Assembly: GCA_903893485.1 (NCBI GenBank)
Contig: CAITMK010000008.1
Location: 10,612 to 74,611 of the forward strand
Length of the DNA stretch: 64,000 bases
Source of the DNA: Candidatus Magasanikiibacteriota bacterium
Lineage (GTDB): Bacteria; Patescibacteriota; Patescibacteriia; Magasanikbacterales; 2-02-FULL-50-9b
Direction: 5' to 3'
Each line of letters begins with the position of its first letter. Position 1 is the first letter of the stretch. Below are positions 7,525 through 50,700 of the stretch, in pieces. The notes under the pieces were generated by a model, which was not told the DNA's origin, did not search any database, and saw nothing but the letters and a program-made list of their open reading frames with translations. Position numbers and translations under genes: made by a program.

Positions 7525-8061
7525 ATGGCTGATACACAAATCGCAGTCTTTGGCGGCGGATGCTTTTGGTGCACTGAAGCTTTTTTTAAAATGCTCCGCG
7601 GCGTTGTTTCGATTGCACCAGGTTATGCGGGCGGCACTACGCAAAATCCAACCTACGAAGAGGTTTGCACCGGCGAAACCGGCCACGTTGAAGTGATACA
7701 AATTATTTTTGACCCCGCGCAAATCACTTTTGAAAACTTATTAGATGTTTTTTTTGCAACACACGACCCAACAACAATAAACCGCCAAGGTAACGATGTG
7801 GGTACACAATATCGATCAATAATTTTTTATACCTCCCCCGCGCAACAAGTTGCTGCAGAAAAATATATTGCAGATGCAAATGCATCAAGCGCTGCAGGCC
7901 GCTCAATTATTACAGCAGTCGAGCCGCTCACCAAATTTTGGGAAGCAGAAAATTACCATCACGATTATTTTGCGCGCAATAAAGATAAACCGTATTGCCA
8001 AGTCGTAATCAATCCAAAATTACAAAAAGCAAAAGAAAATTTTGGAAAATTACTAAGATAA
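7525..8061 (+). CDS. msrA: peptide methionine sulfoxide reductase A
   Basis: GGGCFWC active-site motif near N-terminus; TATAAT 8 nt before ATG suggests leaderless transcript. Confidence 0.9.
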   Translation: MADTQIAVFGGGCFWCTEAFFKMLRGVVSIAPGYAGGTTQNPTYEEVCTGETGHVEVIQIIFDPAQITFENLLDVFFATHDPTTINRQGNDVGTQYRSIIFYTSPAQQVAAEKYIADANASSAAGRSIITAVEPLTKFWEAENYHHDYFARNKDKPYCQVVINPKLQKAKENFGKLLR

Positions 8062-8062
8062 T

Positions 8063-8593
8063 ATGATTGACGAAGTATACGATATTTTCAACGACGCCTG
8101 GGAAAAAATTGGTATGGCAACATGGACCGAAGTGCACGCGCGTGGCCTATTGCATGAAAATGCAACTATTATGATTTTTAAAGACGTCACTAAAAATGAA
8201 TTTTTGGTGCAGCATCGTGGCAGCGGCATGGCACATGATCCAGGAAAATTAACCAACAGCGCTGGTGGCCATTTACTCGCGGGTATGTCGGCTGACGAAG
8301 GTGCGCGCAAAGAACTCCAAGAAGAATTATTTGCAGGCCATGAACTACCAAATATTTCACTCACCAAAATCAAAACTTTTTTAAATGAAGACTTCCCAGG
8401 CAACCGCGAAATTTTAAATGTGTACGAAGGCGTATATCCTGGCCCGTTTTATTTCGAGGAAAAAGAATTAGAGCATCCGCCCGAATGGATGTTGTGGGAT
8501 GATTTGATCACAGACTTGCGTGCACAGCCAGAAAAATATACGCAGGTACTAAAAAATATTTTGAAAGAAGCCTATCATATTTCTCTAAACTAA
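8063..8593 (+). CDS. NUDIX hydrolase
   Basis: Nudix box GGHLLAGMSADEGARKELQEELF. Confidence 0.8.
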   Translation: MIDEVYDIFNDAWEKIGMATWTEVHARGLLHENATIMIFKDVTKNEFLVQHRGSGMAHDPGKLTNSAGGHLLAGMSADEGARKELQEELFAGHELPNISLTKIKTFLNEDFPGNREILNVYEGVYPGPFYFEEKELEHPPEWMLWDDLITDLRAQPEKYTQVLKNILKEAYHISLN

Positions 8594-8595
8594 AA

Positions 8596-8740
8596 GGACC
8601 TACTTTGAGCAGCATCTCGGAGGCGAGCCAGCCGGTTTTTGCCGAAGGCAAAATGGCTCGCCGAGAGCGAGTACCAATTTGGCGCTGGCCAAATTGAGTA
8701 CGTCTGCGAAAAGTAGGTCCTTTTAGTTTTGGGGAGTTTA
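8596..8740. repeat. about 145-bp nested inverted-repeat element at a convergent gene junction (bidirectional terminator or structured RNA/MITE)
   Basis: outer 17-bp stem CTAAAAGGACCTACTTT...AAAGTAGGTCCTTTTAG; inner palindromes GAGCCAGCC/GGCTCGCC and CCAATTTGG...CCAAATTGG; T-rich on both flanks. Confidence 0.5.
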
Positions 8741-10081
8741 CATGATCACGCGCTTGCGACGACCAGGAAAACTTGAGTTGCGACGTGGGCCATTTGAAGG
8801 GCCACCAGCTGAAGCTGGACCACCACCTCCGCCACCAAATTGGCGACGTGGCATAGCAGGGCGACCACCTGGGCGCTGCTGTGGAGGGCGATTTGAATTA
8901 CCAAATGCGCCATGTGGACGATTGCTACCGCCACCAAATCCACCAGTCACCGAAATATCTGGCACATGAGTAATTGGCAATGGCATGCGAATCAAGTTTT
9001 CGATTGCGCGCACATCAGAACGCTGATCTGGTGTTGCAAAAGAAACGGCACGACCCGTGTGACCCGCGCGGCCAGTACGGCCAATGCGATGCACGTAATC
9101 ATCAGATGAATCTGGTAAATCAAAGTTAATAACCATTTCAATTCCCTTTACATCAATACCACGCGCTGCAATATCGGTTGCAACCAAAACGCGATATTTA
9201 CCACGCTTAAAACCTTCGAGCGCTTCACGGCGCTGACCAAGTGAACGATCAGAGTGAATTTCCGCAGCAGAAATATTTTCGTTGCGAAGAGCCATGGCCA
9301 TTTTACGTGCACCATGTTTGGTACGTGAAAAAACTAACACCGCGCCAGTGGTATCAAGCAAAACTTTTCCAAGCAATTTCATTTTGTCATCTTTGTGCAC
9401 AAAAATAATTTCCTGAGAAACGCGATCTGCGGTTGTACCTGGCTGAACTACTTCAACGCGCACCGGAAGCTGCATGTAATTTGCCGCAAGCTTCATGATG
9501 TCTGGTGGCATGGTTGCCGAGAAAAGCATGGTTTGGCGTTCAGCAGCTGGTGGCATTGCCGCAAAAATTTTCTGAATTGCTGGCATGAAACCCATGTCAA
9601 ACATACGATCAGCTTCATCCAAAACAGCGATTGTTACTGTTTTTAAGCTGATGTTGCGCTGTTGCATGTGGTCCAAAAGACGACCCGGAGTTGCCACAAT
9701 TAAACGTGGGCTCTGGCGAAGACGCTGGGTCTGCATGTGCATTGAAGTGCCGCCCATAAGGACAACGCTGCGAATGCCACAACCGCGACCGATGCGTTCT
9801 GCAGTTTCTTCAACCTGGAGCGCAAGTTCACGAGTTGGTACCACCACAAGGGCAATACCGCGGTTTTGCTGCAAACGCTGCATAATTGGTACTACAAAAG
9901 CAAGGGTTTTACCCGTACCGGTTTGTGCAATACCGACCACGTCCTTACCAGTAATACCTGGTGGAATAGCCTGAAGCTGAATTGGCGTTGGGACAGTGAA
10001 CTGTGCCCGATTTAATGTATCTAAAATTGCTGGCGCGATGCCAAGACCGTCAAAAGACGGTTTTACTTCGTTAGGTGTCAT
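8738..10081 (-). CDS. DEAD-box ATP-dependent RNA helicase with Gly/Arg-rich C-terminal tail
   Basis: Q-motif TPIQ, Walker A GTGKT, DEAD, SAT, HRIGRTGR; start chosen at MTPNEV (track ORF starts at 10129). Confidence 0.9.
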   Translation of the reverse strand: MTPNEVKPSFDGLGIAPAILDTLNRAQFTVPTPIQLQAIPPGITGKDVVGIAQTGTGKTLAFVVPIMQRLQQNRGIALVVVPTRELALQVEETAERIGRGCGIRSVVLMGGTSMHMQTQRLRQSPRLIVATPGRLLDHMQQRNISLKTVTIAVLDEADRMFDMGFMPAIQKIFAAMPPAAERQTMLFSATMPPDIMKLAANYMQLPVRVEVVQPGTTADRVSQEIIFVHKDDKMKLLGKVLLDTTGAVLVFSRTKHGARKMAMALRNENISAAEIHSDRSLGQRREALEGFKRGKYRVLVATDIAARGIDVKGIEMVINFDLPDSSDDYVHRIGRTGRAGHTGRAVSFATPDQRSDVRAIENLIRMPLPITHVPDISVTGGFGGGSNRPHGAFGNSNRPPQQRPGGRPAMPRRQFGGGGGGPASAGGPSNGPRRNSSFPGRRKRVIM

Positions 10082-38010: not shown

Positions 38011-38505
38011 CTAAGGGCCCAAGAACGCAAAAATAATAACATTCACTTTTTAAAATGTAAAGAAATTATTGTTTGGGAGCACCGCTTATGCGTATTGCTC
38101 GTCGATCAAGAGATAAGATTTGATCTTCAGCATCTTGATATGGTTCTTTTTTTATTAAGAATTTATTCGCAATACGTTCAGCCTTTACCGATTGAGAGGC
38201 GTGCCCCGTATTACTTATCTGTTTTTTATACTTTTTATTTGAAAATTGAAATGGAGCAAGCAAATGAATCGCAAGCCTGCTTAGAAAGCTGTTTTCAACT
38301 TTATTCAGCTGTTTTAATGTGCATTTTTCTTTCATGAAGTTCAGTATAGCATTTGTGCATAACTGTTGATAACTTTGGGGATAAAGCTGTGATTTCTGTG
38401 TGTAAATACTGTTGAAAGTGTGATATAGTTCTATTTGATAACAATAATATATACATTTTTACTTTATGTTTCACGTGAAACATAAGAAAAAATGGTCGAA
38501 AATCT

Positions 38506-38853
38506 ATGGTTTCACGTGAAACATCCCATAACCTATCTGACGATTTTATAGCTGGAATAATTTCGGTTTCAGGTAGTTTTCTTCATACAAAAACTGCACG
38601 CGTAGAACAATTTGGTTTTCAAATAAAAACACCAAAAGAAAACTTTGCGCTTCTTGAAATGATACGACTCAGACTTGGCTTAAAAGGATCCGTAAAAATC
38701 TATTCGGCAGATGGATCAGAATATGCATTACTTATTACAAGATCAAAAAAAGAGCTTTTGAACAAAATAATTCCATTTGTTGAACATAAACTACTTGGAA
38801 TTAAGCTAAATCAATATTTAAATTGGAAAGATAAACTCCAATCTATTTTATAG
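38506..38853 (+). CDS. LAGLIDADG-family homing-endonuclease-like protein, motif acidic residues replaced by Ser (likely degenerate)
   Basis: DDFIAGIISVSGSF aligns to LAGLIDGDGSF motif; downstream FQIKTPKEN...LLITRSKKELLNKIIPF typical of LAGLIDADG fold; sits between two tRNAs. Confidence 0.5.
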   Translation: MVSRETSHNLSDDFIAGIISVSGSFLHTKTARVEQFGFQIKTPKENFALLEMIRLRLGLKGSVKIYSADGSEYALLITRSKKELLNKIIPFVEHKLLGIKLNQYLNWKDKLQSIL

Positions 38854-40186: not shown

Positions 40187-40190
40187 AAAA

Positions 40191-40350
40191 GTTCTGATAC
40201 TGACCACTCATGTGTTGACCTCAGTGCGCACATCGCACACTCCGATGCAATATCCCAGAAAGACCGGGGTGCAAACATGGTTTGGAGTGATTGAGTTAGC
40301 GGTTCCCTTAGGTTAAAAGGCCCGGACAGCTTGTGATCAGTATCAGAACA
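40191..40350. repeat. about 160-bp element bounded by 17-bp terminal inverted repeats (MITE-like or structured ncRNA)
   Basis: GTTCTGATACTGACCAC (40191..40207) vs GTGATCAGTATCAGAAC (40334..40350), 16/17 complementary; GC-richer interior with TTGAC...TGCAATAT. Confidence 0.4.
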
Positions 40351-40400
40351 AATAATAATATCATAAAAAAGAGGCCTTGTCAATATGCGCAAACAAAAAA

Positions 40401-40744: not shown

Positions 40745-41707
40745 TCACGCAGCCACAAACTTGTCAATTAGCATGCGAGGGTCCGCGGAACCGTGTTTGA
40801 TGGCGTAATCAATGTCGATCAGCCGATCGTACCACAAAACCAAATCGGCGCGAGCGGCCCGGCGGGCAGCACCAATAATTTTTTTGCCCACAAACGGATG
40901 CACGCCCATTTTTGCGGCGGCGGTTTCTTCGTGCAGGGCGGGGTTATCGGCGATTAAATCATGGGCCTCGAACATGAGCCGCGCCTGACGATGCAACATT
41001 GCAAACACATATACAGGATCATTATCCACGTACCAAACCTGGGCTAACAATTCCATGGCATGCTTTTTTTTGCCCTGAGCCAACTCATCCATGGCGGCAA
41101 AAATTGTGTTTTCAATATCAGGCGTTAAAAAAATATCTAAATCTTTGTCATTGATTGGCCGCGCGGCACCAACATATGCGGTTAGCATTTCAATCAAATT
41201 TGAAAGCTCAAAATTGTTTGCAACGCGGCGAGATAGGGAATCGGCCGCTGAGTTAGTAATTGTCGCACCGCGCGCCGCAACCTCGCGCACAATAAAATCA
41301 ACGCGGTTTTTCCCTTCGAATGCTGCAAATTCCTGAGCAAACTTGCCTTGAGTCAGACGCGCATGCAGCGCTTCGTTAGAATTCTTAGATTTTTTAACTG
41401 GTTCTTCCTCCCACAAAACAATAATTGTGTCTTCCGGCGGTTCATTGTCCAAAAATCGTACGGCAAACCAGGTCAATAATTCTGCATCGCCCAATTCGAG
41501 CATGCGCTCGACCACCACCATGCGCTTAGGAGCCAGAAATGGCGCTGTGAGAAGTTCTGAGCGAATATCCGTCGACTCATTCGCACCCACCACAACTCGC
41601 TTCACGTTGAGGCGCTGAGGGTCTCGCTCGCGATAAAATTTCTCGATGAGTTTATCGAGATGCTCGCGCGAGCGTTTGGTATCGGTACCGTATAAATACA
41701 AAATCAT
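40745..41707 (-). CDS. holA: DNA polymerase III delta subunit
   Basis: MILYLYGTD... N-terminal clamp-loader delta pattern; size 320 aa. Confidence 0.75.
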   Translation of the reverse strand: MILYLYGTDTKRSREHLDKLIEKFYRERDPQRLNVKRVVVGANESTDIRSELLTAPFLAPKRMVVVERMLELGDAELLTWFAVRFLDNEPPEDTIIVLWEEEPVKKSKNSNEALHARLTQGKFAQEFAAFEGKNRVDFIVREVAARGATITNSAADSLSRRVANNFELSNLIEMLTAYVGAARPINDKDLDIFLTPDIENTIFAAMDELAQGKKKHAMELLAQVWYVDNDPVYVFAMLHRQARLMFEAHDLIADNPALHEETAAAKMGVHPFVGKKIIGAARRAARADLVLWYDRLIDIDYAIKHGSADPRMLIDKFVAA

Positions 41708-41735
41708 GGTGGCATCTTACAACATGGGGCGGGGA

Positions 41736-41764
41736 TTGACAAAAAGCCGAATTTCTAATAGTCT
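41736..41764 (+). promoter_or_regulatory. promoter TTGACA-N17-TAGTCT
   Basis: TTGACA 41736..41741, TAGTCT 41759..41764; AAGGAG 8 nt before ATG 41797. Confidence 0.5.
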
Positions 41765-41796
41765 TGCCTCCAGGCATCACACAAGGAGATATTGCC

Positions 41797-42378
41797 ATGA
41801 CAGCAGAACACAATTTCGCAGGCGCATCGAGCGCATACTCACTTGTGGGACGTATCGTCGATATGCTTCACACATGCGCGCAAGGTAGAAAGGCTGCCAC
41901 GCTCATCGAGAGAAACCTCGATCTAATCCACCGTCTACTGCGGACAATCCGCGCGGTTGCCGAACTCGAAGCCGTCGGACCGAACTACGGTAACGATCCG
42001 ATGGAGGTATCGTACACGAGCGCCACCGGCGAGTCTGTGAAAGAACGTGTTTGGCTCGGCGCCATCCGGCTCAGTGACGTTTACAGCGATGCTGGGCGTG
42101 GCCGTTCACTCGACGAATTTAATCCAGAACAAACGCGCACGATGCTGCAATTGCTCGATGTCCGATTCGCAAACGAGCACCACTGGAAAGCGCTCGCGAA
42201 CGAAACGAGCGAGCCGTGGCGTTGGCAACAATACCTGATCTTCGACGACGCACGCATCCTCGTGCCGATGAAGCAGGAAGTCCCCGCGCTGCAAGCACAC
42301 CCATGTACCAACAACACCGTGCCGAACATCGACTTTTACCCCTGCATCATCATCGTGCTGAAGTTGGAGCCGATGTAG
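41797..42378 (+). CDS. hypothetical protein (193 aa), GC-rich cassette gene E1
   Basis: ORF with SD-supported start MTAEHNFAG; no recognised domain. Confidence 0.55.
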   Translation: MTAEHNFAGASSAYSLVGRIVDMLHTCAQGRKAATLIERNLDLIHRLLRTIRAVAELEAVGPNYGNDPMEVSYTSATGESVKERVWLGAIRLSDVYSDAGRGRSLDEFNPEQTRTMLQLLDVRFANEHHWKALANETSEPWRWQQYLIFDDARILVPMKQEVPALQAHPCTNNTVPNIDFYPCIIIVLKLEPM

Positions 42379-42395
42379 CTAGCAGCGAAACATGC

Positions 42396-42452
42396 GGTCC
42401 GTCCGGATCTGAGTCCATCACTTGGGGCTCTCCGGACGGCGTTTTTATTTTG
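42396..42452 (+). terminator. intrinsic terminator, family shared with 43202..43256
   Basis: GGTCCGTCCGGATCTGAGTCCATCACTTGGGGCTCTCCGGACGGCGTTTTTATTTTG. Confidence 0.65.
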
Positions 42453-42466
42453 ACAAGCTATGAGGA

Positions 42467-42495
42467 TTGACAGAAACTGTATTTTGCAGTAGTCT
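42467..42495 (+). promoter_or_regulatory. promoter TTGACA-N17-TAGTCT (paralog of 41736..41764)
   Basis: TTGACA 42467..42472, TAGTCT 42490..42495, both preceded by GATTGACA. Confidence 0.5.
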
Positions 42496-42551
42496 TTTCC
42501 CATGCCTGTAGCAAATTGCTGCACACATCCCAACATCGCGTGAGGCTATCA

Positions 42552-43193
42552 ATGAGCAATCCTGTTTGGCTTTTTCTTCACCACATTCGCCCTTATCTGT
42601 TCGAGGTCGAGACGCTTGATCCGAAAAACCTGAAATCAGTCGCGGCGGCGCTGAACCTTGTCGATCGGTTCAATCAGATCAGTGAGCACGCGCTGCACGA
42701 GCATTTCAGCACCGTCGATCCGAGCGCCAACGATTCGCAGGAATTGCGGATGTTCCACAACTTGTTGAAGTCGCTGCTCGAAGTGATGCCGCGGCACCCT
42801 GAACTGACCGCGACCTACAACAAAGTGTTTGGCGTTTACGTGATGCTGTTCGAACACCAGCACGACGAATACGGCAAGCGCGGCGCTGAGCGGATCGTCG
42901 AGATGCTGAAACCTGAGAACTTTCAACACAACATCGAGGCTTGGCCGATTTACCACAAAGCGATCATCCTCGCCGTGTGGGCATTCGTGAGGCGTGCAAA
43001 GACAACCCTGAGTCCGCACAACGATGATACCATTCCGCTGAAAATCACGGCGGTGGAACTTGTGCTGAGAACGATCGATCCCGACATGTCAGCTGCCGCA
43101 AAGATGAGGCGTATGAGCGAATATGGCCTGGATCATACGTACCGGCTCTACCAGTTTCACCACCATGAATCGGCGAGCACGACGCCGCAGTAG
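42552..43193 (+). CDS. hypothetical protein (213 aa), GC-rich cassette gene E2
   Basis: SD-like GAGG 6 nt before ATG (MSNPVWLF); His-rich C-terminus YQFHHHES; no recognised domain. Confidence 0.55.
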   Translation: MSNPVWLFLHHIRPYLFEVETLDPKNLKSVAAALNLVDRFNQISEHALHEHFSTVDPSANDSQELRMFHNLLKSLLEVMPRHPELTATYNKVFGVYVMLFEHQHDEYGKRGAERIVEMLKPENFQHNIEAWPIYHKAIILAVWAFVRRAKTTLSPHNDDTIPLKITAVELVLRTIDPDMSAAAKMRRMSEYGLDHTYRLYQFHHHESASTTPQ

Positions 43194-43201
43194 TCGAACT
43201 A

Positions 43202-43256
43202 GTCCGTCCGGATTTGAGCCCAGCATTTGGGGCTCTCCGGACGGCGTTTTATTTTA
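43202..43256 (+). terminator. intrinsic terminator; U-tract contains polA stop codon on opposite strand
   Basis: GTCCGTCCGGATTTGAGCCCAGCATTTGGGGCTCTCCGGACGGCGTTTTATTTTAATCC. Confidence 0.65.
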
Positions 43257-45965
43257 ATCCAAATCTGCCCAACTGTTTCCAATCGCACTATCAACTTTCA
43301 GTGGCACGCTCAATTTCGCAACGCCATTCATAATTTCAACAATCTTTGGCGCCAAATCTTTAACCAACTTTTCTTCAATCTCAAAAATCAATTCATCATG
43401 TACCTGCAAAATCATGCGAGCAGGGCAGGCGCGTTCCGCAGCGGTTAGGCTAAACCCAAATCCATATTCGCGCACCAAAAATTCATCAACCGCAATCATC
43501 GCTTTTTTCACAATGTCAGCTTGCGTTCCTTGAATTGGCATGTTCACTGCCATGCGATCTGCGGCGGCGCGCACACCAGCCACGCCGGAATGCATTTCTG
43601 GCATATAGCGACGGCGACCAAACATGGTTTCAACGTATCCATTCTCACGCGCAAATTTTTTAATGCCTTCGACGTACGCTGCAACACCAGTAAACGTTGC
43701 AAAATATTTTTCAATAAACGCGCGTGCCTCACTTTGTGAAATACCCGTGCGCTCTGCCAAACCCCACGCACCCATTCCATACAAAACACCAAAGTTAACT
43801 TCCTTTGCGGAAAAACGCATTTCTTTAGTCACCTGATCGAGCGGCACACCATGAATTTCTGCGGCCGTTGCTTTATGAACGTCTTCGCCTTTTTCAAAAA
43901 TTTCAATTAATTTTTTATCCTGTGCTAAGTGTGCAACAATGCGCAATTCAATTTGCGAATAATCGCACGACAACAATTTGTATCCATCGGCTGCAATAAA
44001 CGCACGACGAATATCGCGGCCCAATTCACTACGCACCGGAATGTTTTGCAAATTTGGATTCGATGATGACAAGCGACCAGTTGCAACAACAACTTGATTG
44101 TAACTGGTATGCACACGACCGTCTTGCGCAATTAATTTTGGCAACGCGTCGACATAGGTCGATAATAATTTTGCAACTTCACGATGTTCCAAAATCGCAT
44201 CAATAATTTCGTGCGTGCCTTTTAATTTTTCAAGTTCGCCGGCGGCGGTTGAAATTCCAGTTTTTCCGCGCTTAATTCCAAATGTTGATAATTTTAATTC
44301 TTCAAATAAAACTTCGGAAACTTGTTGTGGCGATGCAATGTTAAATTCATGGCCTGCGAATCCATACACGCGCGCGGTAATTTTTTCTTGGCGCGCGGTT
44401 AAGTCAACATGTAATTTTTCCAAATATTTTGGATCAACTAAAACGCCATAACGTTCCATGCGCGTGAGTGGTGCAACGAGTGGCATTTCAATATCCGTAA
44501 ATAATGCCATCTGATTTTTTTCTTCCATGTCCGCACCTAATTTTTCTGCGATACGTGCAACACGTGCTGCAGCACGCGCAACAGTTGCACCATCCGCAGT
44601 TGTCCATTCAGCCACCGGCACGTCTTCGCCTAAAATTGTAATCACCAAATTTGGTAAATCATGTGCGCGTGTTCCGGCTTGCAATAAATATGCCGCAACC
44701 ATAATGTCAAAAAACTTTCCCGCAACGGTGATGCCATGCATCGCAAGTTCGTGCATTAATTGTTTAACATCGTGGGCCACAACACCAACGCGCTTATCCA
44801 TAAACAATGGACCGAGCGCATCCCACTGCGATTCCTCGCGCACTTCAACTGCAGCCTGATTGTCGCCATACGAAAATCCAAAGAACGCAACTGATCCTGC
44901 AAACAAATCTTGTTGCGCAACGCGCATAAAATGCACTGCAATTTTTGGTTGGTCTTGAAGTTTTGCAACCAACGCATGTGTGCTTGCTGCATCGCGTGCA
45001 ACAACTATTTTTTTTGCGGGTGTAGATTTTTTTGGTGCTTCTGCAGCTGGCGCATCTTTGCTTCCTGGTAATCGATTTAACAAAGATAAAAATTCAAACT
45101 TTTGCAAAACAGGAAAAATTTCATCGCGTGTAATTCCATCGAATGCGCATTCATCAAAATTAAAATCAATTGGCACATTGCGTACAATCGTAACCAACTC
45201 CTTACTAAGGAGTGCATCTGATTTGTGCTCGAGTAAAACTTTTTGCACACGCGCACTCAATCCTTCTGCAACTTTTTCATGTGCAGCAGCCAACTCCAAT
45301 TTCTCGTATAAATTTTCAATGGTCCCAAAATATTTAATAAGTTCCATGCCTGTTTTTTCGCCAATACCTTTTACGCCTTTAATATTATCAGACGTATCAC
45401 CACGAAGTGCTTTGTAATCGATCATCTGAGGTGGTTCAAAACCAAAACGTTCGTGCACCGCTGCCGCGTCGTAAGTTACGGTGTCATTAATACCTTTGCG
45501 CATGGTGTACACCACGGTATTTTTGTCTACCAACTGAAGTGTATCCATATCACCAGTCACAATAACTTTTTTTGCGTGAGGCGCTTCGGTTACAATCGTA
45601 CCGATCACATCATCAGCCTCAAAACCTTTTTTTTCGTACACCGGAATTTTTGCAGCTGCTAAAAATTCTTTGATAAAAGGAATTTGCGCATACAATTCAT
45701 CCGGTGCTTTTGTACGCGTTGCTTTATATTCTGCATACGCTTCATTGCGAAATGTCCCACCAGCCACATCAAAGGTAACTACCACGTGCGTTGGTTTAAC
45801 ATCTTTTATCGCTTTAAAAAGTGTGGTGATAAAGCCGTACACTGCATTTACCAAAACCCCGTCTTTCGTTGCCAAAGGAGGAATTGCATGAAAACATCGA
45901 TGTACCATTGCGTTCCCATCGATAATCATGAGCTTATTTTCTGAGGTTTTTGGAGTTTGAGCCAT
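43254..45965 (-). CDS. polA: DNA polymerase I (5'-3' exonuclease + 3'-5' exo-like + polymerase domains)
   Basis: N-terminal FEN motifs, Klenow motifs DYSQIELR, RRxAKxxNFGxxYG, QVHDELIFE. Confidence 0.95.
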   Translation of the reverse strand: MAQTPKTSENKLMIIDGNAMVHRCFHAIPPLATKDGVLVNAVYGFITTLFKAIKDVKPTHVVVTFDVAGGTFRNEAYAEYKATRTKAPDELYAQIPFIKEFLAAAKIPVYEKKGFEADDVIGTIVTEAPHAKKVIVTGDMDTLQLVDKNTVVYTMRKGINDTVTYDAAAVHERFGFEPPQMIDYKALRGDTSDNIKGVKGIGEKTGMELIKYFGTIENLYEKLELAAAHEKVAEGLSARVQKVLLEHKSDALLSKELVTIVRNVPIDFNFDECAFDGITRDEIFPVLQKFEFLSLLNRLPGSKDAPAAEAPKKSTPAKKIVVARDAASTHALVAKLQDQPKIAVHFMRVAQQDLFAGSVAFFGFSYGDNQAAVEVREESQWDALGPLFMDKRVGVVAHDVKQLMHELAMHGITVAGKFFDIMVAAYLLQAGTRAHDLPNLVITILGEDVPVAEWTTADGATVARAAARVARIAEKLGADMEEKNQMALFTDIEMPLVAPLTRMERYGVLVDPKYLEKLHVDLTARQEKITARVYGFAGHEFNIASPQQVSEVLFEELKLSTFGIKRGKTGISTAAGELEKLKGTHEIIDAILEHREVAKLLSTYVDALPKLIAQDGRVHTSYNQVVVATGRLSSSNPNLQNIPVRSELGRDIRRAFIAADGYKLLSCDYSQIELRIVAHLAQDKKLIEIFEKGEDVHKATAAEIHGVPLDQVTKEMRFSAKEVNFGVLYGMGAWGLAERTGISQSEARAFIEKYFATFTGVAAYVEGIKKFARENGYVETMFGRRRYMPEMHSGVAGVRAAADRMAVNMPIQGTQADIVKKAMIAVDEFLVREYGFGFSLTAAERACPARMILQVHDELIFEIEEKLVKDLAPKIVEIMNGVAKLSVPLKVDSAIGNSWADLD

Positions 45966-46064: not shown

Positions 46065-46859
46065 TCACGAAGCTTCGGGATTCGGCAATTCTTTGTAAAT
46101 CACCCGGACATCATCACGGTCTGCGCCGACAACGTGATATATGGCTTTCAATTGGCCGTCTTTAGCCGAGCAGTACCCACGCAAAATGCCGGTGAGCGTC
46201 TTTGCAGAATCTTCGACTGGCTCAAAAGCAAACTCGGTACCGTATATATTAGACTGCGTAACACGGCCAAAAATGGTTTCACCCTCCGCATTTGAACAAG
46301 CCAAGATTTCGGATCCGTCTTTGCAGGGAACCGTGGCCAAAAATCCGCGCTTAGCGAGCCGCTTGCCCGTTTCTGCCGAATATTTGAGCGCCATCCATGC
46401 GCCTTCAAAACGCCAGAACAGCCGGGTACTCGTTGAACGGATCACCATGCCGTTCACCAGCGTGTAGTCGATCGCCGGCTCATCCCACTTGAGCGGATGA
46501 TGTACGCCCGGTTCGTAACACCGCCTCGCCGACGTATAAGTTCCCAGTCCGGCATACACACGCGGCAAGGCCTGATTACTCAAATCACCAAGAGCGCCAA
46601 CAAGATCGCGCCACACAAGAATGGCTGGCAAGTGATTAGCCTGCACCTTTCCTGAGAGTGTCACGAAAATTTCTGGCGAAAACTCTCCCTTTTGCGGTGA
46701 AATTACAAGCCGAGAAAGTGTCGTACCGGCAAATCCGCGGGGAAGTGCGGTCTCGATAAGCGGCAACAATTGCAACGTCTCCAAACCATCTCCAGGCACA
46801 TTCAAATACAGGCCATGAGCACTCCGCAATAGAGTACCGCCAAATTTTTCCGCTGTCAT
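46065..46859 (-). CDS. hypothetical protein (265 aa), GC-rich cassette gene
   Basis: GGAGG 5 nt before ATG (MTAEKFGG); promoter TTGACG-N17-TATACT at 46901..46929 and 5'-UTR hairpin CCCTACgtgatGTAGGG. Confidence 0.55.
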   Translation of the reverse strand: MTAEKFGGTLLRSAHGLYLNVPGDGLETLQLLPLIETALPRGFAGTTLSRLVISPQKGEFSPEIFVTLSGKVQANHLPAILVWRDLVGALGDLSNQALPRVYAGLGTYTSARRCYEPGVHHPLKWDEPAIDYTLVNGMVIRSTSTRLFWRFEGAWMALKYSAETGKRLAKRGFLATVPCKDGSEILACSNAEGETIFGRVTQSNIYGTEFAFEPVEDSAKTLTGILRGYCSAKDGQLKAIYHVVGADRDDVRVIYKELPNPEAS

Positions 46860-46900
46860 GAATCCTCCAAAAGTGAGCCCTACATCACGTAGGGTCAAAA

Positions 46901-47847: not shown

Positions 47848-48729
47848 ATGTTCTGTACAAATCAAAAAATCTGGATGAAGCTGTGGGGCGTGCGGGGGTC
47901 GCGCGCGACGGATGACCAAGAAGTCGGTGGCGCTACCACGTGCATCGAAATGCGGGCTGGCAGCAGCACGCGGCTGGTGTTCGACGGCGGTACGGGTATC
48001 ATCGCCTTCGGCAATACGCTGTTTGCAGAGCTTGCCAAGGGTCCGGTGACGGTTCACCTGTTCCTGACCCATCTGCACACGGATCACTGGGAAGGCCTGC
48101 GGTTCTTTGATCCGCTGCATCACCCAAACCTGAAGCTGGTCATTTGGGGCCGAAAAGGGTTGGTGCGGATGCTGCGCAAGCAGATGTTCGACGGCAACTC
48201 CTTTCCGGTCACACCGGATATGCTGAAGGCGGACATCACGTGCATGCTTGTGGAAGATGATGGCGTGTATGTGATTCCGACACCTGAAGGCAAAAACGTC
48301 GTGGTTCACGCGCGTAGCCTGAATCATCCGGGTGGATGCTTCGGCTACCGCGTTGAATACGACGGCGCGAGCGCAGCGATCATCCAAGACCACGAGGAGC
48401 AAATCGAGGATACGCCCGAAGCGGCGCAGCTCGAACGCAACCTGGTGGAATTGGTGAGCGGTGTTGATCTGGTGGCCTTCGAGGTTCAGTACTCCGACGA
48501 CATGTACTTTGGTCGTGATGGTCCGAGCCGCAAGGGTTGGGGTCACGATCGCGTGGGACATGCGGCAAAGGTGCTGGAACTCGCAGCGCCCAAAGCGGTG
48601 AAGATCGTCCACGCCGACCCGGACCGCGGCAACCTGGCGTTCGTTACCACGATCGCCAGCGCGGTGCAAAAAGCCACAGGCATTCCAACCACTCCTGGTA
48701 TCCAGGGTGAAGAGGTGACCTGTGGCTAG
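47848..48729 (+). CDS. metallo-beta-lactamase-fold hydrolase, GC-rich cassette gene
   Basis: LTHLHTDHWEGL (HxHxDH) plus downstream His/Asp ligands; antisense ORF 47749..48669 is GC-driven. Confidence 0.75.
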   Translation: MFCTNQKIWMKLWGVRGSRATDDQEVGGATTCIEMRAGSSTRLVFDGGTGIIAFGNTLFAELAKGPVTVHLFLTHLHTDHWEGLRFFDPLHHPNLKLVIWGRKGLVRMLRKQMFDGNSFPVTPDMLKADITCMLVEDDGVYVIPTPEGKNVVVHARSLNHPGGCFGYRVEYDGASAAIIQDHEEQIEDTPEAAQLERNLVELVSGVDLVAFEVQYSDDMYFGRDGPSRKGWGHDRVGHAAKVLELAAPKAVKIVHADPDRGNLAFVTTIASAVQKATGIPTTPGIQGEEVTCG

Positions 48730-49604: not shown

Positions 49605-49680
49605 AAGCGGCCGAAGCGACTCGTTGAAGGTGGGCGTGTTTTGCCTCTTCAGTGAATCGCTTCGGCCTTGGCCAGCTTGG
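49605..49680 (-). terminator. intrinsic terminator of GC-rich gene 49683..50600
   Basis: minus: GGCCGAAGCGATTCACTGAAGAGGCAAAACACGCCCACCTTCAACGAGTCGCTTCGGCCGCTTTTTTATTTTAG. Confidence 0.6.
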
Positions 49681-49682
49681 GG

Positions 49683-50600
49683 CTAGGCCGCGGTCGCGTA
49701 CAGCTGGAGCTCGTCGCGCAGCTTGCCCGACTGCTCCACGCTCAGCACTTCAGCCACGTTGTTGCCGTCGCCGTCGTCCAGGAAGCACGCGATGTTGCCT
49801 TCCGGGCCCGTGGCGCCGATGACCGCGCGAACCGTGCGCTGCTTCTGCTGGTTGTCCAGGATCTTCAGCTCGCCGGCGAGGATGGCCTGCGGCATGACGG
49901 AGAACTCGCCGGCGTCGTTGTACTTGACGAGGACAAAATCACCGGTGTCCGAGTTCAAGCACAGCAGCTTGTCGCCGGTATCGCGCGAGATGCTGGAAAG
50001 CTTGAACTGGCTCGCGGGCGACGGGATCGCGCTGCCGACCAGGTCGATCGACATGAGGATGCTCTCGGCGTCCAGCAGGCTGAGCAGCGGCTCGCCCTCT
50101 TTCGGGCTCTTGTGCAGCAGGACCAGGACGTTGGCGTTGCCGATCTTGAAGACGGCCGCGTCGACGAACTTGTTGTTGACCTCGGGCAAGCCCGGGATCC
50201 AGGACACTTCCTGCACGTTGGCGCCGACGAGGTGCTTGCCGGTGAAGCGGTCGCCGTCGACATTCTTCATGATCTGCTCGACCGCCGCCTTGTCGCCTTC
50301 GACGAAGTGGAAGTTCTTGCCCGCCGTCACGACGTACGAGGACTTGGCCTCTTCGCCGTCGGCGCTCGCGATGAACTGCGAGGACATGACGCACGCCTCG
50401 TCGTCGGCCAGCTTGTATTTCTTGGCTTCCGCGGCGTCGATCAGCTTGACTTCAAACTTGCCGATTTCGTCGCCGACCGCGCGCTTCAGCACGACGGCGC
50501 CGGTGTTCTCGGACTTGGCTTTGACGATGCCGTCGCTGCCGATGTAGGCAAGGCCCATCGTGGTGATGAGCTGGATCATAATCGTACGATTGCTGTTCAT
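49683..50600 (-). CDS. hypothetical protein (305 aa), very GC-rich cassette gene
   Basis: protein-like composition on minus strand whereas the 3-4 overlapping ORFs on other frames are Arg/Ala/Gly-rich GC artefacts; GAGG 4 nt before ATG. Confidence 0.55.
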   Translation of the reverse strand: MNSNRTIMIQLITTMGLAYIGSDGIVKAKSENTGAVVLKRAVGDEIGKFEVKLIDAAEAKKYKLADDEACVMSSQFIASADGEEAKSSYVVTAGKNFHFVEGDKAAVEQIMKNVDGDRFTGKHLVGANVQEVSWIPGLPEVNNKFVDAAVFKIGNANVLVLLHKSPKEGEPLLSLLDAESILMSIDLVGSAIPSPASQFKLSSISRDTGDKLLCLNSDTGDFVLVKYNDAGEFSVMPQAILAGELKILDNQQKQRTVRAVIGATGPEGNIACFLDDGDGNNVAEVLSVEQSGKLRDELQLYATAA

Positions 50601-50700
50601 GATGCCTCGTAACCAGTGGATGCGGCCCTTTCTGAGCCAACATCGGTTTCCCTTATTAGCAATGACGGCCTATCCGCCATCGCCAATCTGAGTGAAAGTG

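What the first reader, a model, noticed from the sequence alone, without database searches (positions are those of the whole stretch)
41720..43262. Tandem pair of unknown genes (E1, E2) with paralogous promoters and near-identical terminators
Two adjacent GC-rich ORFs of 193 aa and 213 aa have no recognisable domain. Each has its own GATTGACA-N17-TAGTCT promoter; the unusual -10 box TAGTCT is shared by both. Each has its own terminator of one family, GTCCGTCCGGAT(C/T)TGAG(T/C)CCA....TTGGGGCTCTCCGGACGGCGTTTT(T)ATTTT. 

Duplicated regulatory modules around two unrelated-looking proteins suggest a two-component accessory module built from repeated parts, for example a toxin/immunity or defence pair. 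The E2 C-terminus is His-rich, with HHHES and HEH, so it could bind metal.
Basis: partly seen in the sequence, partly recalled or inferred. Interest (0 to 1): 0.75.

Follow-up and report, generated by a model that had tools for sequence, protein, structure and literature searches.

The report
Two orphan genes in cassette slot
Two real but function-unknown genes, each with its own promoter and terminator, sit in a gap between two DNA-replication genes that related uncultured groundwater bacteria fill with zero to four different genes framed by the same promoter and terminator, so this is a variable accessory-gene slot and not a demonstrated toxin or defence pair.

Summary
E1 (41797-42378, 193 aa) and E2 (42552-43193, 213 aa) are GC-rich ORFs, each with TTGACA-N17-TAGTCT and a strong hairpin plus T-run; the two terminators are 89% identical over 54 nt. 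Both look coding: GC3 is 0.66/0.71, both have Shine-Dalgarno sites, and strain SNPs lean synonymous.

Neither matches any Pfam, NCBIfam, PHROG, PADLOC, PDB or phage entry. The protein databases hold only the same population.

The host is a Magasanikbacteria-like CPR bacterium. The genes lie between holA and polA, which abut each other in three relatives. Other relatives hold 1-4 promoter-ORF-terminator cassettes there, with mostly unrelated ORFs: soluble proteins, small membrane proteins and one PBECR3 nuclease-like protein. The terminator hairpin is conserved with compensatory changes and was found only in this slot.

E1 has one remote homologue, the first cassette of L107. E2 has only a weak, unproven link to another slot family.

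Best reading: two autonomous, moron-like accessory cassettes stacked in a hypervariable slot. The toxin/immunity or defence-pair idea is not supported, because the genes are separate transcription units, are not conserved as a pair and sit among housekeeping genes. Function remains unknown. Interest is moderate.

The parts
41714..41742 (-). holA promoter: -35 TTGTCA (41742-41737) and -10 TAAGAT (41719-41714). The -10 ends 6 nt before the holA ATG (41707), which suggests a leaderless holA mRNA. Its -35 overlaps the P1 -35 on the opposite strand.
   Evidence: Consensus scan. CATCTTAC...GGATTGACAAA is conserved next to holA in 11 relatives.
41733..41765 (+). P1, promoter of E1: GGA-TTGACA (41736-41741), 17 nt, TAGTCT (41759-41764).
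   Evidence: Same position and motif next to holA in relatives.
41797..42378 (+). E1 CDS, 193 aa, with SD AAGGAG at 41783-41788. Soluble, pI 5.7, predicted alpha/beta. One remote homologue, L107 cassette 1.
42393..42452 (+). T1, intrinsic terminator of E1: two-tier hairpin (outer stem CCGTCCGGA/TCCGGACGG, inner stem GAGTCC/GGGCTC) followed by TTTTTATTTT. It starts 15 nt after the E1 stop.
   Evidence: 64.4 bits; -27.8 kcal/mol, z -4.3. Covariation.
42464..42496 (+). P2, promoter of E2: GGA-TTGACA (42467-42472), 17 nt, TAGTCT (42490-42495). A vestigial TTGACA formed by the T1 tail sits at 42444-42449.
42552..43193 (+). E2 CDS, 213 aa, with SD-like GAGG at 42542-42545. Soluble, all-helical in a low-confidence model, His-rich (16 His). 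It is a polymorphism hot spot in the population.
43198..43257 (+). T2, intrinsic terminator of E2, a paralogue of T1. It abuts the polA stop codon (43254).
   Evidence: 64.2 bits; -29.4 kcal/mol, z -5.3.
40745..41707 (-). holA (DNA polymerase III delta), the left border of the slot.
   Evidence: Pfam PF21694 and a source name.
43254..45965 (-). polA (DNA polymerase I), the right border of the slot.
   Evidence: Pfam 5'-3' exonuclease and DNA_pol_A domains.

Best explanation
E1 and E2 are two separate, monocistronic accessory genes stacked in a hypervariable cassette slot between holA and polA of a Magasanikbacteria-like (CPR/Patescibacteria) genome.

Each cassette is self-contained. It has a sigma-70-type promoter of the genome's own kind (perfect TTGACA, 17-nt spacer, loose TAnnnT), a Shine-Dalgarno site, an ORF of about 200 codons with foreign-looking codon usage, and a strong two-tier intrinsic terminator that insulates it from the neighbouring replication genes.

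The promoter/terminator frame is native to the slot and under selection. P1 shares its -35 with the divergent holA promoter, and the terminator keeps its structure through compensatory changes. The ORFs between them are replaced or diverge beyond recognition from lineage to lineage.

Inferred, not shown:
- The two-cassette state arose by stacking a second promoter-ORF-terminator unit. This happened either by tandem duplication of the frame or by recombination with a relative's slot, using the conserved flanks as homology.
- The GC3-rich ORFs probably come from higher-GC relatives.
- The proteins are soluble cytoplasmic proteins of strain-level accessory function, most likely binding or conflict-type roles and not metabolism. 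They act independently, not as a toxin/antidote pair.
For: - Architecture: repeats and hairpins. The promoter type is 16-fold enriched in the window and sits before genes.
- Coding status: GC1/GC2/GC3 is 0.61/0.41/0.66 for E1 and 0.58/0.34/0.71 for E2, against GC3 0.35-0.41 in core genes. Alternative frames are full of stops. Both have SD sites.
- Strain variant L004 has 13 SNPs, all within E2. Seven codons carry a synonymous change and four a non-synonymous one.
- E1 is homologous to L107 cassette 1, also the first cassette next to holA: Smith-Waterman 66 against 30 +/- 4.7 in 2000 shuffles, BLASTP E 5e-5.
- Slot variability: polA abuts holA in L009, L106 and L108. There is one cassette in L008, L105, L111, L112, L114, L115, L109, L010 and L013, and four in L107.
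- The slot ORFs are mutually unrelated by BLASTP, and some have 3-4 TM segments where E1 and E2 have none.
- Frame conservation: a covariance model of the terminator hits every training copy, all of them in the slot, at 40-68 bits. The only hit that was not in the training set, the L105 slot, is weak (23 bits). Nothing else in 224 kb scores better than E = 0.06.
- The outer helix is 99% paired, and 4 of its 9 pairs show double compensatory changes.
- The terminator is 58-81% identical between genomes whose four-fold degenerate sites in holA are only 36-44% identical.
- Cassette ORFs are GC-richer than their flanks in 7 of 7 relatives.
Against: - No expression data exist, so promoter and terminator activity are inferred from sequence only.
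- Function is unknown. There are no homologues with annotation, and the AlphaFold models are poor (pLDDT 41 and 61). Structural matches are generic helical solenoids or noise.
- The closest sampled relative has only 68% holA identity, so orphan status partly reflects sparse sampling.
- Homologues can also be missed through miscalled genes. L107 cassette 1 was not called as a gene.
- If E2 really is related to L010_x and L107 cassette 3 (profile p about 0.009; hhalign P 0.046), then an E1-like plus E2-like pair recurs in L107. That would leave room for a functional link.
Confidence: 0.65

Rival explanations
1. E1 and E2 form a functionally coupled two-gene conflict system (toxin/immunity, toxin-antitoxin or anti-phage defence).
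For: - Two adjacent small accessory genes of unknown function with atypical composition.
- The equivalent slot in L107 holds a PBECR3 nuclease-like gene, at 29.7 bits against a cut-off of 30. Conflict-type cargo therefore does occur here.
- E2 is a polymorphism hot spot.
- L107 may hold both an E1-like and a weakly E2-like gene.
Against: - Each gene has its own promoter and a -28 kcal/mol terminator lies between them.
- No PADLOC, Pfam or PHROG hit.
- Housekeeping neighbours, not a defence island.
- Most relatives carry a single, different gene or none.
- L010 has its family without an E1-like partner.
- Both proteins are about 200 aa, soluble and near-neutral in pI, unlike typical small antitoxins.
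Confidence: 0.08
2. E1 and E2 are ancient tandem paralogues. One cassette (promoter, gene and terminator) duplicated, and the coding parts diverged beyond recognition while the regulatory parts stayed conserved.
For: - T1 and T2 are 89% identical, closer to each other than to any other genome's copy.
- P1 and P2 share GGATTGACA and TAGTCTT.
- The proteins are of similar size.
Against: - No protein similarity: BLASTP E 0.4, and 1392 of 2000 shuffles score at least as well by Smith-Waterman.
- Different predicted secondary structure, alpha/beta against all-alpha, though both models are low-confidence.
- E1 groups with L107 cassette 1, while E2's only hint is to a different family (L010_x and L107 cassette 3). 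Both families lie side by side in L107.
- Short in-register DNA repeats between the two ORFs fall in different reading frames (read from the sequence).
Confidence: 0.12
3. The slot is a dedicated cassette-capture platform. The conserved hairpin is a recombination site, analogous to attC, at which promoter-ORF-hairpin units are inserted or exchanged by a recombinase, and it acts as a terminator only secondarily.
For: - Arrays of 1-4 cassettes, each ending in a structurally conserved but sequence-variable hairpin found only in this slot.
- Terminator subtype does not track ORF family. L010_x has a GGATCGAGTC-type hairpin while its homologue L107 cassette 3 has the ATTGAATCATAAC type, which it shares with unrelated L111 and L115 ORFs.
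- A tyrosine-recombinase gene lies about 5 kb away.
Against: - No recombinase is adjacent to the slot.
- Each hairpin is followed by a T-run and sits 8-15 nt after a stop codon, as an ordinary intrinsic terminator does.
- There is no GTTRRRY-like core site.
- Cassettes carry their own promoters.
- Exchange by homologous recombination through the holA and polA flanks explains the pattern without a dedicated mechanism.
Confidence: 0.07
4. The ORFs are chance open frames in GC-rich non-coding DNA and no proteins are made.
For: - GC-rich DNA has few stop codons.
- The protein databases hold no homologues outside the same population.
- AlphaFold confidence is low.
Against: - Codon-position GC periodicity, and 4-14 stops in five of the six frames (2 in one reverse frame of E2) against none inside the called frame.
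- SD sites at the correct spacing.
- SNPs in E2 biased towards synonymous changes.
- A significant remote homologue of E1 at the same position in L107.
- Promoter and terminator bracket each ORF exactly.
Confidence: 0.03

Closest known systems
Phage 'morons' (independent promoter-gene-terminator units inserted between conserved phage genes; Cumby, Davidson & Maxwell 2012, PMC3594210)
   Same: An autonomous transcription unit with its own promoter and factor-independent terminator. GC content differs from the neighbours. It is present between two genes that are adjacent in related genomes, and the cargo is an accessory gene of unknown or host-benefit function.
   Different: - It lies in the chromosomal core (holA/polA) of a CPR bacterium, not in a phage or prophage. 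There are no phage homologues.
- The promoter/terminator frame is conserved across lineages around different ORFs.
- P1 is shared with the holA promoter.
Integron gene cassettes (ORF plus structured attC hairpin, in arrays)
   Same: Arrays of small, mostly orphan ORFs, each followed by an imperfect hairpin whose structure is more conserved than its sequence. Cassette number varies at a fixed site.
   Different: There is no adjacent IntI or attI. The cassettes have their own promoters. The hairpin is followed by a U-tract like an intrinsic terminator, and there are no R'/R'' core sites.
Replacement/additive flexible genomic islets between core genes (pan-genome hot spots)
   Same: A fixed location between conserved core genes with strain- or lineage-specific gene content. 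An allele mosaic in E2 suggests recombination.
   Different: It is very small (0.6-2.5 kb). It has no tRNA or integrase anchor. A reusable promoter/terminator frame is conserved.
Type II toxin-antitoxin or toxin-immunity pairs
   Same: Two adjacent small accessory genes.
   Different: They are not co-transcribed. There is no family match. Both proteins are about 200 aa. They are not conserved as a pair.

Membership tests
Moron (phage accessory transcription unit) | Own promoter upstream of the gene | tested here: met
   TTGACA-N17-TAGTCT lies 26-50 nt upstream of each SD/ATG, and it matches the genome's enriched promoter type. Sequence level only.
Moron (phage accessory transcription unit) | Own factor-independent terminator | tested here: met
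   Hairpins of -27.8 and -29.4 kcal/mol followed by a T-run, 8-15 nt after the stop codons. Covariation across genomes.
Moron (phage accessory transcription unit) | Inserted between genes that are adjacent in related genomes | tested here: met
   polA abuts holA in L009, L106 and L108.
Moron (phage accessory transcription unit) | Base composition differs from the surrounding genes | tested here: met
   GC3 is 0.66 and 0.71, against 0.35 for polA and 0.38 for rmuC.
Moron (phage accessory transcription unit) | Resides in a phage or prophage genome | tested here: not met
   The neighbours are rmuC, rpsT, holA and polA. No phage or IMG/VR relatives. No significant PHROG hit.
Integron gene cassette | Adjacent IntI integrase with attI and a common Pc promoter; cassettes themselves promoterless | tested here: not met
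   The slot is bordered by holA and polA. Each cassette has its own promoter. The nearest tyrosine recombinase is about 5 kb away and was not characterised.
Integron gene cassette | attC site with R''/L''-L'/R' arms and a GTTRRRY core | tested here: not met
   A hairpin is present, but the conserved ends are CCG...CGG followed by CGTTTTTATTT. No GTTRRRY core.
Type II toxin-antitoxin / toxin-immunity pair | Two genes co-transcribed as one operon | tested here: not met
   Terminator T1 and promoter P2 lie between E1 and E2. Sequence inference; no transcript data.
Type II toxin-antitoxin / toxin-immunity pair | Homology of at least one partner to a known toxin, antitoxin or immunity family | tested here: not met
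   No Pfam, NCBIfam, PADLOC or PHROG match below E = 0.01. No PDB sequence match.
Type II toxin-antitoxin / toxin-immunity pair | Conserved co-occurrence of the two genes | tested here: inconclusive
   Outside the same population, the only E1 homologue found is L107 cassette 1. L107 also has cassette 3, whose link to E2 is weak (p about 0.009; hhalign P 0.046). L010 has that family without an E1-like gene.
Rho-independent (intrinsic) terminator | GC-rich stem-loop immediately followed by a U-tract, downstream of a stop codon | tested here: met
   The simple scanner missed them because the loop exceeds its 8-nt limit: the loop itself forms an inner stem.
Rho-independent (intrinsic) terminator | Termination activity in vivo or in vitro | not testable with these tools
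   No transcript data were available.

The most novel reading that the evidence does not exclude
In Magasanikbacteria the holA-polA gap is a dedicated, expression-ready cassette platform. A fixed promoter and a slot-specific structured hairpin frame interchangeable orphan genes, which are captured, stacked and swapped between lineages. The hairpin may serve as the recombination point. This would give these reduced-genome symbionts an integron-like way to diversify host-interaction or conflict proteins without an integron integrase.
Probability: 0.1. Interest if true: 0.75.

Novelty: new variant of a known kind. Interest (0 to 1): 0.45.

Why it matters
CPR/Patescibacteria genomes are small, and roughly half of their genes have no known function. 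How they gain and test new genes is poorly understood.

This locus has a fixed site between two essential replication genes. A conserved promoter and a conserved, covarying terminator bracket ever-changing orphan ORFs, and the units can be stacked. It is therefore a tractable example of modular gene turnover in such genomes. It also gives a rule for finding more accessory cassettes: search with the terminator model next to holA.

For E1 and E2 the practical message is cautionary. Duplicated regulatory parts do not imply a coupled two-gene system.

Tried and rejected
1. Domain searches of E1 and E2 against Pfam, PADLOC, PHROGs and NCBIfam gave only noise.
2. A word-indexed homologue search for each protein and an exhaustive phmmer search for E2 against 1.84 billion representatives found only the same population. 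The other E2 hits, at E 1e-5 to 1e-3, are multi-stretch matches in very long proteins and were treated as compositional.
4. PDB sequence search found nothing.
5. tblastn against phages and an IMG/VR scan found nothing. The terminator pattern was absent from viral contigs.
6. The single metagenome scan, using a degenerate terminator pattern, returned 91 loci. All were unrelated generic GC-rich terminators from other organisms. The pattern was too generic and the scan was effectively wasted.
7. Rfam gave no family over the region.
8. E1-E2 paralogy was rejected.
9. Homology of E2 to L010_x and L107 cassette 3 is unresolved:
   - My visual 'YGL' motif was not supported by a two-sequence HMM or by hhalign (P 0.046, probability 1%).
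   - A sum-of-pairs profile test gave p about 0.009.
   - The pairwise registers are mutually consistent.
   - I leave this as a hint only.
10. A diversity-generating retroelement as the cause of the E2 SNP cluster was rejected. The substitutions are not adenine-specific and no reverse-transcriptase gene appears among the genes called around the slot.

Full report
**1. What is in the sequence**

The region lies between a DNA polymerase III delta gene (holA, 40745-41707, minus strand) and DNA polymerase I (polA, 43254-45965, minus strand). On the plus strand there are two ORFs. E1 is 41797-42378 (193 aa) and E2 is 42552-43193 (213 aa).

Each ORF is preceded by GGATTGACA-N17-TAGTCTT, at 41733-41765 and 42464-42496. 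Each is followed by a 54-nt element, at 42397-42450 and 43202-43255, and the two copies are 89% identical. Both repeats are far beyond chance.

The 3' elements fold into two-tier hairpins of -27.8 and -29.4 kcal/mol (z -4.3 and -5.3). Each is followed by a T-run and starts 8-15 nt after the stop codon. The simple terminator scanner missed them only because the 'loop' itself is an inner stem.

E1 has an AAGGAG Shine-Dalgarno site 8 nt before its ATG. E2 has GAGG 6 nt before its ATG.

**2. Are the promoters special?**

TTGACA-N17-TAnnnT occurs 12 times in the window against 0.73 expected. Eleven of the 12 lie just upstream of ORFs in the right orientation. This is therefore the genome's own promoter type: a perfect -35 and a loose -10. 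TAGTCT is within its normal range.

P1's -35 (TTGACA) overlaps, on the other strand, the -35 (TTGTCA) of the holA promoter. The holA -10 (TAAGAT) ends 6 nt before the holA ATG, so holA is probably leaderless.

The promoter resemblance is therefore partly consensus. The extra shared GGA and the trailing T suggest that P2 is a copy, but only the terminators are unambiguous paralogous copies.

**3. Are the ORFs genes?**

Yes, most likely.
- GC by codon position is 0.61/0.41/0.66 for E1 and 0.58/0.34/0.71 for E2.
- All other frames contain 2-14 stops.
- Core genes have GC3 of 0.35-0.41, so the codon usage of E1 and E2 looks foreign.

The same locus occurs in seven further metagenome contigs of one population, at 99.5% identity or more. 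In the one variant contig (L004), all 13 differences fall inside E2 and none fall in holA or E1. They cluster at codons 63-84 and 158-170. Seven codons carry a synonymous change and four a non-synonymous one. This pattern fits a coding gene that is a hot spot of allelic recombination.

**4. Homology and structure**

No domain library gives a credible hit. The 5.8-billion-sequence search returns only the same population for both proteins. An exhaustive phmmer search for E2 against 1.84 billion representatives does the same. PDB, phage and IMG/VR searches are empty.

The single-sequence AlphaFold models are poor. E1 has pLDDT 41 with mixed alpha/beta. E2 has pLDDT 61 with ten helices. The structure matches are generic helical repeats or noise.

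Both proteins lack hydrophobic segments. E2 has 16 His in 213 residues.

**5. The comparative picture, which changes the interpretation**

holA relatives identify the organism as a Magasanikbacteria-like CPR bacterium. The nearest sampled relatives are only 59-68% identical in holA.

I examined the polA-holA gap in 15 relatives.
- **Empty:** L009, L106 and L108.
- **One cassette:** L008, L105, L111, L112, L114, L115, L109, L010 and L013.
- **Four cassettes:** L107.

The cassette ORFs are nearly all without Pfam domains and are mutually unrelated by BLASTP. They include:
- soluble proteins of about 160-213 aa;
- small membrane proteins with 3-4 predicted TM segments (L114, L115);
- one PBECR3 nuclease-like protein, at 29.7 bits against a cut-off of 30.

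Despite this variety, the cassettes share one frame. GGATTGACAAA sits next to holA. The terminator is of one family: an outer stem CCGnnnGGA/TCCnnnCGG, an inner stem, then CGTTTTTATTT.

Evidence that the frame is conserved:
- On an alignment of 12 copies the outer helix is 99% paired, and 4 of its 9 pairs show changes on both sides. Every shuffle and slide control scores lower.
- A covariance model built from the 12 copies finds them at 40-68 bits. It also finds the L105 slot terminator, which was not in the training set, at 23 bits. Nothing else in 224 kb of window plus relatives scores better than E = 0.06.
- The terminator is 58-81% identical between genomes whose four-fold degenerate sites in holA are only 36-44% identical. 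It is therefore selected or exchanged, not merely inherited.

Terminator subtype does not follow ORF family. In several cassettes the T-tail runs straight into the next TTGACA. Examples are TTTTATTTTGACAAGC at window 42441 and similar junctions in L107 and L115.

Cassette ORFs are GC-richer than their flanks in all seven relatives tested.

**6. Relatives of E1 and E2 within the slot**

E1 is significantly similar to the first cassette of L107, which is also next to holA. The ORF there is 211 aa with a GTG start.
- BLASTP gives 31% identity over 94 aa, E 5e-5 pairwise.
- The Smith-Waterman score is 66, against 30 +/- 4.7 (maximum 51) in 2000 shuffles.
- That ORF had not been called as a gene in its source, which explains why the protein search missed it.

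L010_x and L107 cassette 3 are homologous to each other (E 5e-6).

E2's link to that pair is weak. Pairwise p is about 0.04-0.05 with mutually consistent registers. The profile test gives p about 0.009. A small HMM and hhalign are not significant. I treat this as unproven.

E1 and E2 are not similar to each other.

**7. Interpretation**

The evidence best fits two autonomous, monocistronic accessory cassettes stacked in a hypervariable slot. Each is insulated by a strong terminator from the essential genes on either side. The closest described concept is the phage 'moron': its own promoter and terminator, deviating GC, and present between genes that are adjacent in relatives (PMC3594210). Here, however, the unit is in a bacterial chromosome, and the regulatory frame is reused around different ORFs.

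The following steps are inferred, not shown:
- Stacking arose by duplication of the frame or by recombination with a relative's slot.
- The ORFs were imported from higher-GC relatives.
- The proteins act independently, in strain-specific binding or conflict-type roles.

The toxin/immunity or defence-pair reading is not supported, for four reasons: separate transcription units, no family matches, a housekeeping context, and no conserved pairing. It cannot be excluded outright while E2's relationship to L107 cassette 3 is unresolved.

**8. Verdict**

Their function is unknown. The interesting part is not the pair itself but the conserved promoter/terminator frame around interchangeable orphan ORFs at one chromosomal site in a CPR lineage. 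It is a new variant of known kinds (morons, flexible islets, cassette arrays). Interest is moderate.

Noticed in passing
L010 about 9205-9095 (-), L011 about 7560-7450 (-), L115 about 125-20 (-): A conserved small structured RNA candidate of about 75 nt lies inside the same polA-holA slot of three relatives. It has its own TTGACA-N17-TAnnAT promoter and a T-run. The core is GGGCCTCCGGAYGGTTGC, enclosed by a helix with 3 compensatory pairs among 3 sequences (RNAalifold -33.3 kcal/mol). No Rfam family matches it, and it is absent from the window.
   Followed up: partly
window 40190-40383 (-): A strong promoter (TTGACA-17-TG-TATTAT, 11 of 12 matches) is followed by about 170 nt without an ORF, ending in a T-run. 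It lies between rmuC and rpsT and may be an unannotated small RNA. Only sub-threshold Rfam hits.
   Followed up: partly
window 41705-41742 (-): holA seems to be leaderless: the -10 TAAGAT ends 6 nt before the ATG. Its -35 TTGTCA is the mirror of the P1 -35 on the other strand, giving back-to-back promoters that share one near-palindromic -35. CATCTTAC is conserved next to holA in nearly all the relatives examined.
   Followed up: partly
window 42738-43061 (E2), compared with L004: In a strain variant, all 13 SNPs over 2.6 kb fall inside E2, in two clusters (codons 63-84 and 158-170). holA and E1 are identical. This suggests a mosaic, recombining allele.
   Followed up: partly
L010 about 7880-8860: A copy of about 170 nt of the polA 3' end flanks an inserted 213-aa gene on the polA strand (7961-8602). 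This looks like an insertion at the polA 3' end with duplication of the target.
   Followed up: no
L107 2599-3036 (-): The fourth cassette of the L107 slot encodes a 145-aa PBECR3 (Barnase/EndoU/ColicinE5-D/RelE-like) nuclease-like protein. It scores E 6.6e-7 and 29.7 bits against a cut-off of 30, is AT-rich, and has a different terminator.
   Followed up: partly
window 46065-46898 (-), 47848-48729 (+), 49668-50612: There are further GC-rich stretches or ORFs in the window. One is a 277-aa ORF without a Pfam hit just upstream of polA. Another is a metallo-beta-lactamase-fold gene with GC3 0.70. The ORF upstream of polA also differs in length among relatives, so other gaps in this neighbourhood are variable too.
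   Followed up: no
L109 1570-2139, L112 5379-5855: The holA-rpsT gap also holds lineage-specific small ORFs in some relatives: 189 aa in L109, and 62 and 93 aa in L112. It is empty in the window.
   Followed up: no
window 38337-38700, L001 2710-3057: A small LAGLIDADG-domain ORF (115 aa) and tRNA genes lie between the recombinase-like gene and rmuC. The LAGLIDADG gene is conserved in several relatives.
   Followed up: no
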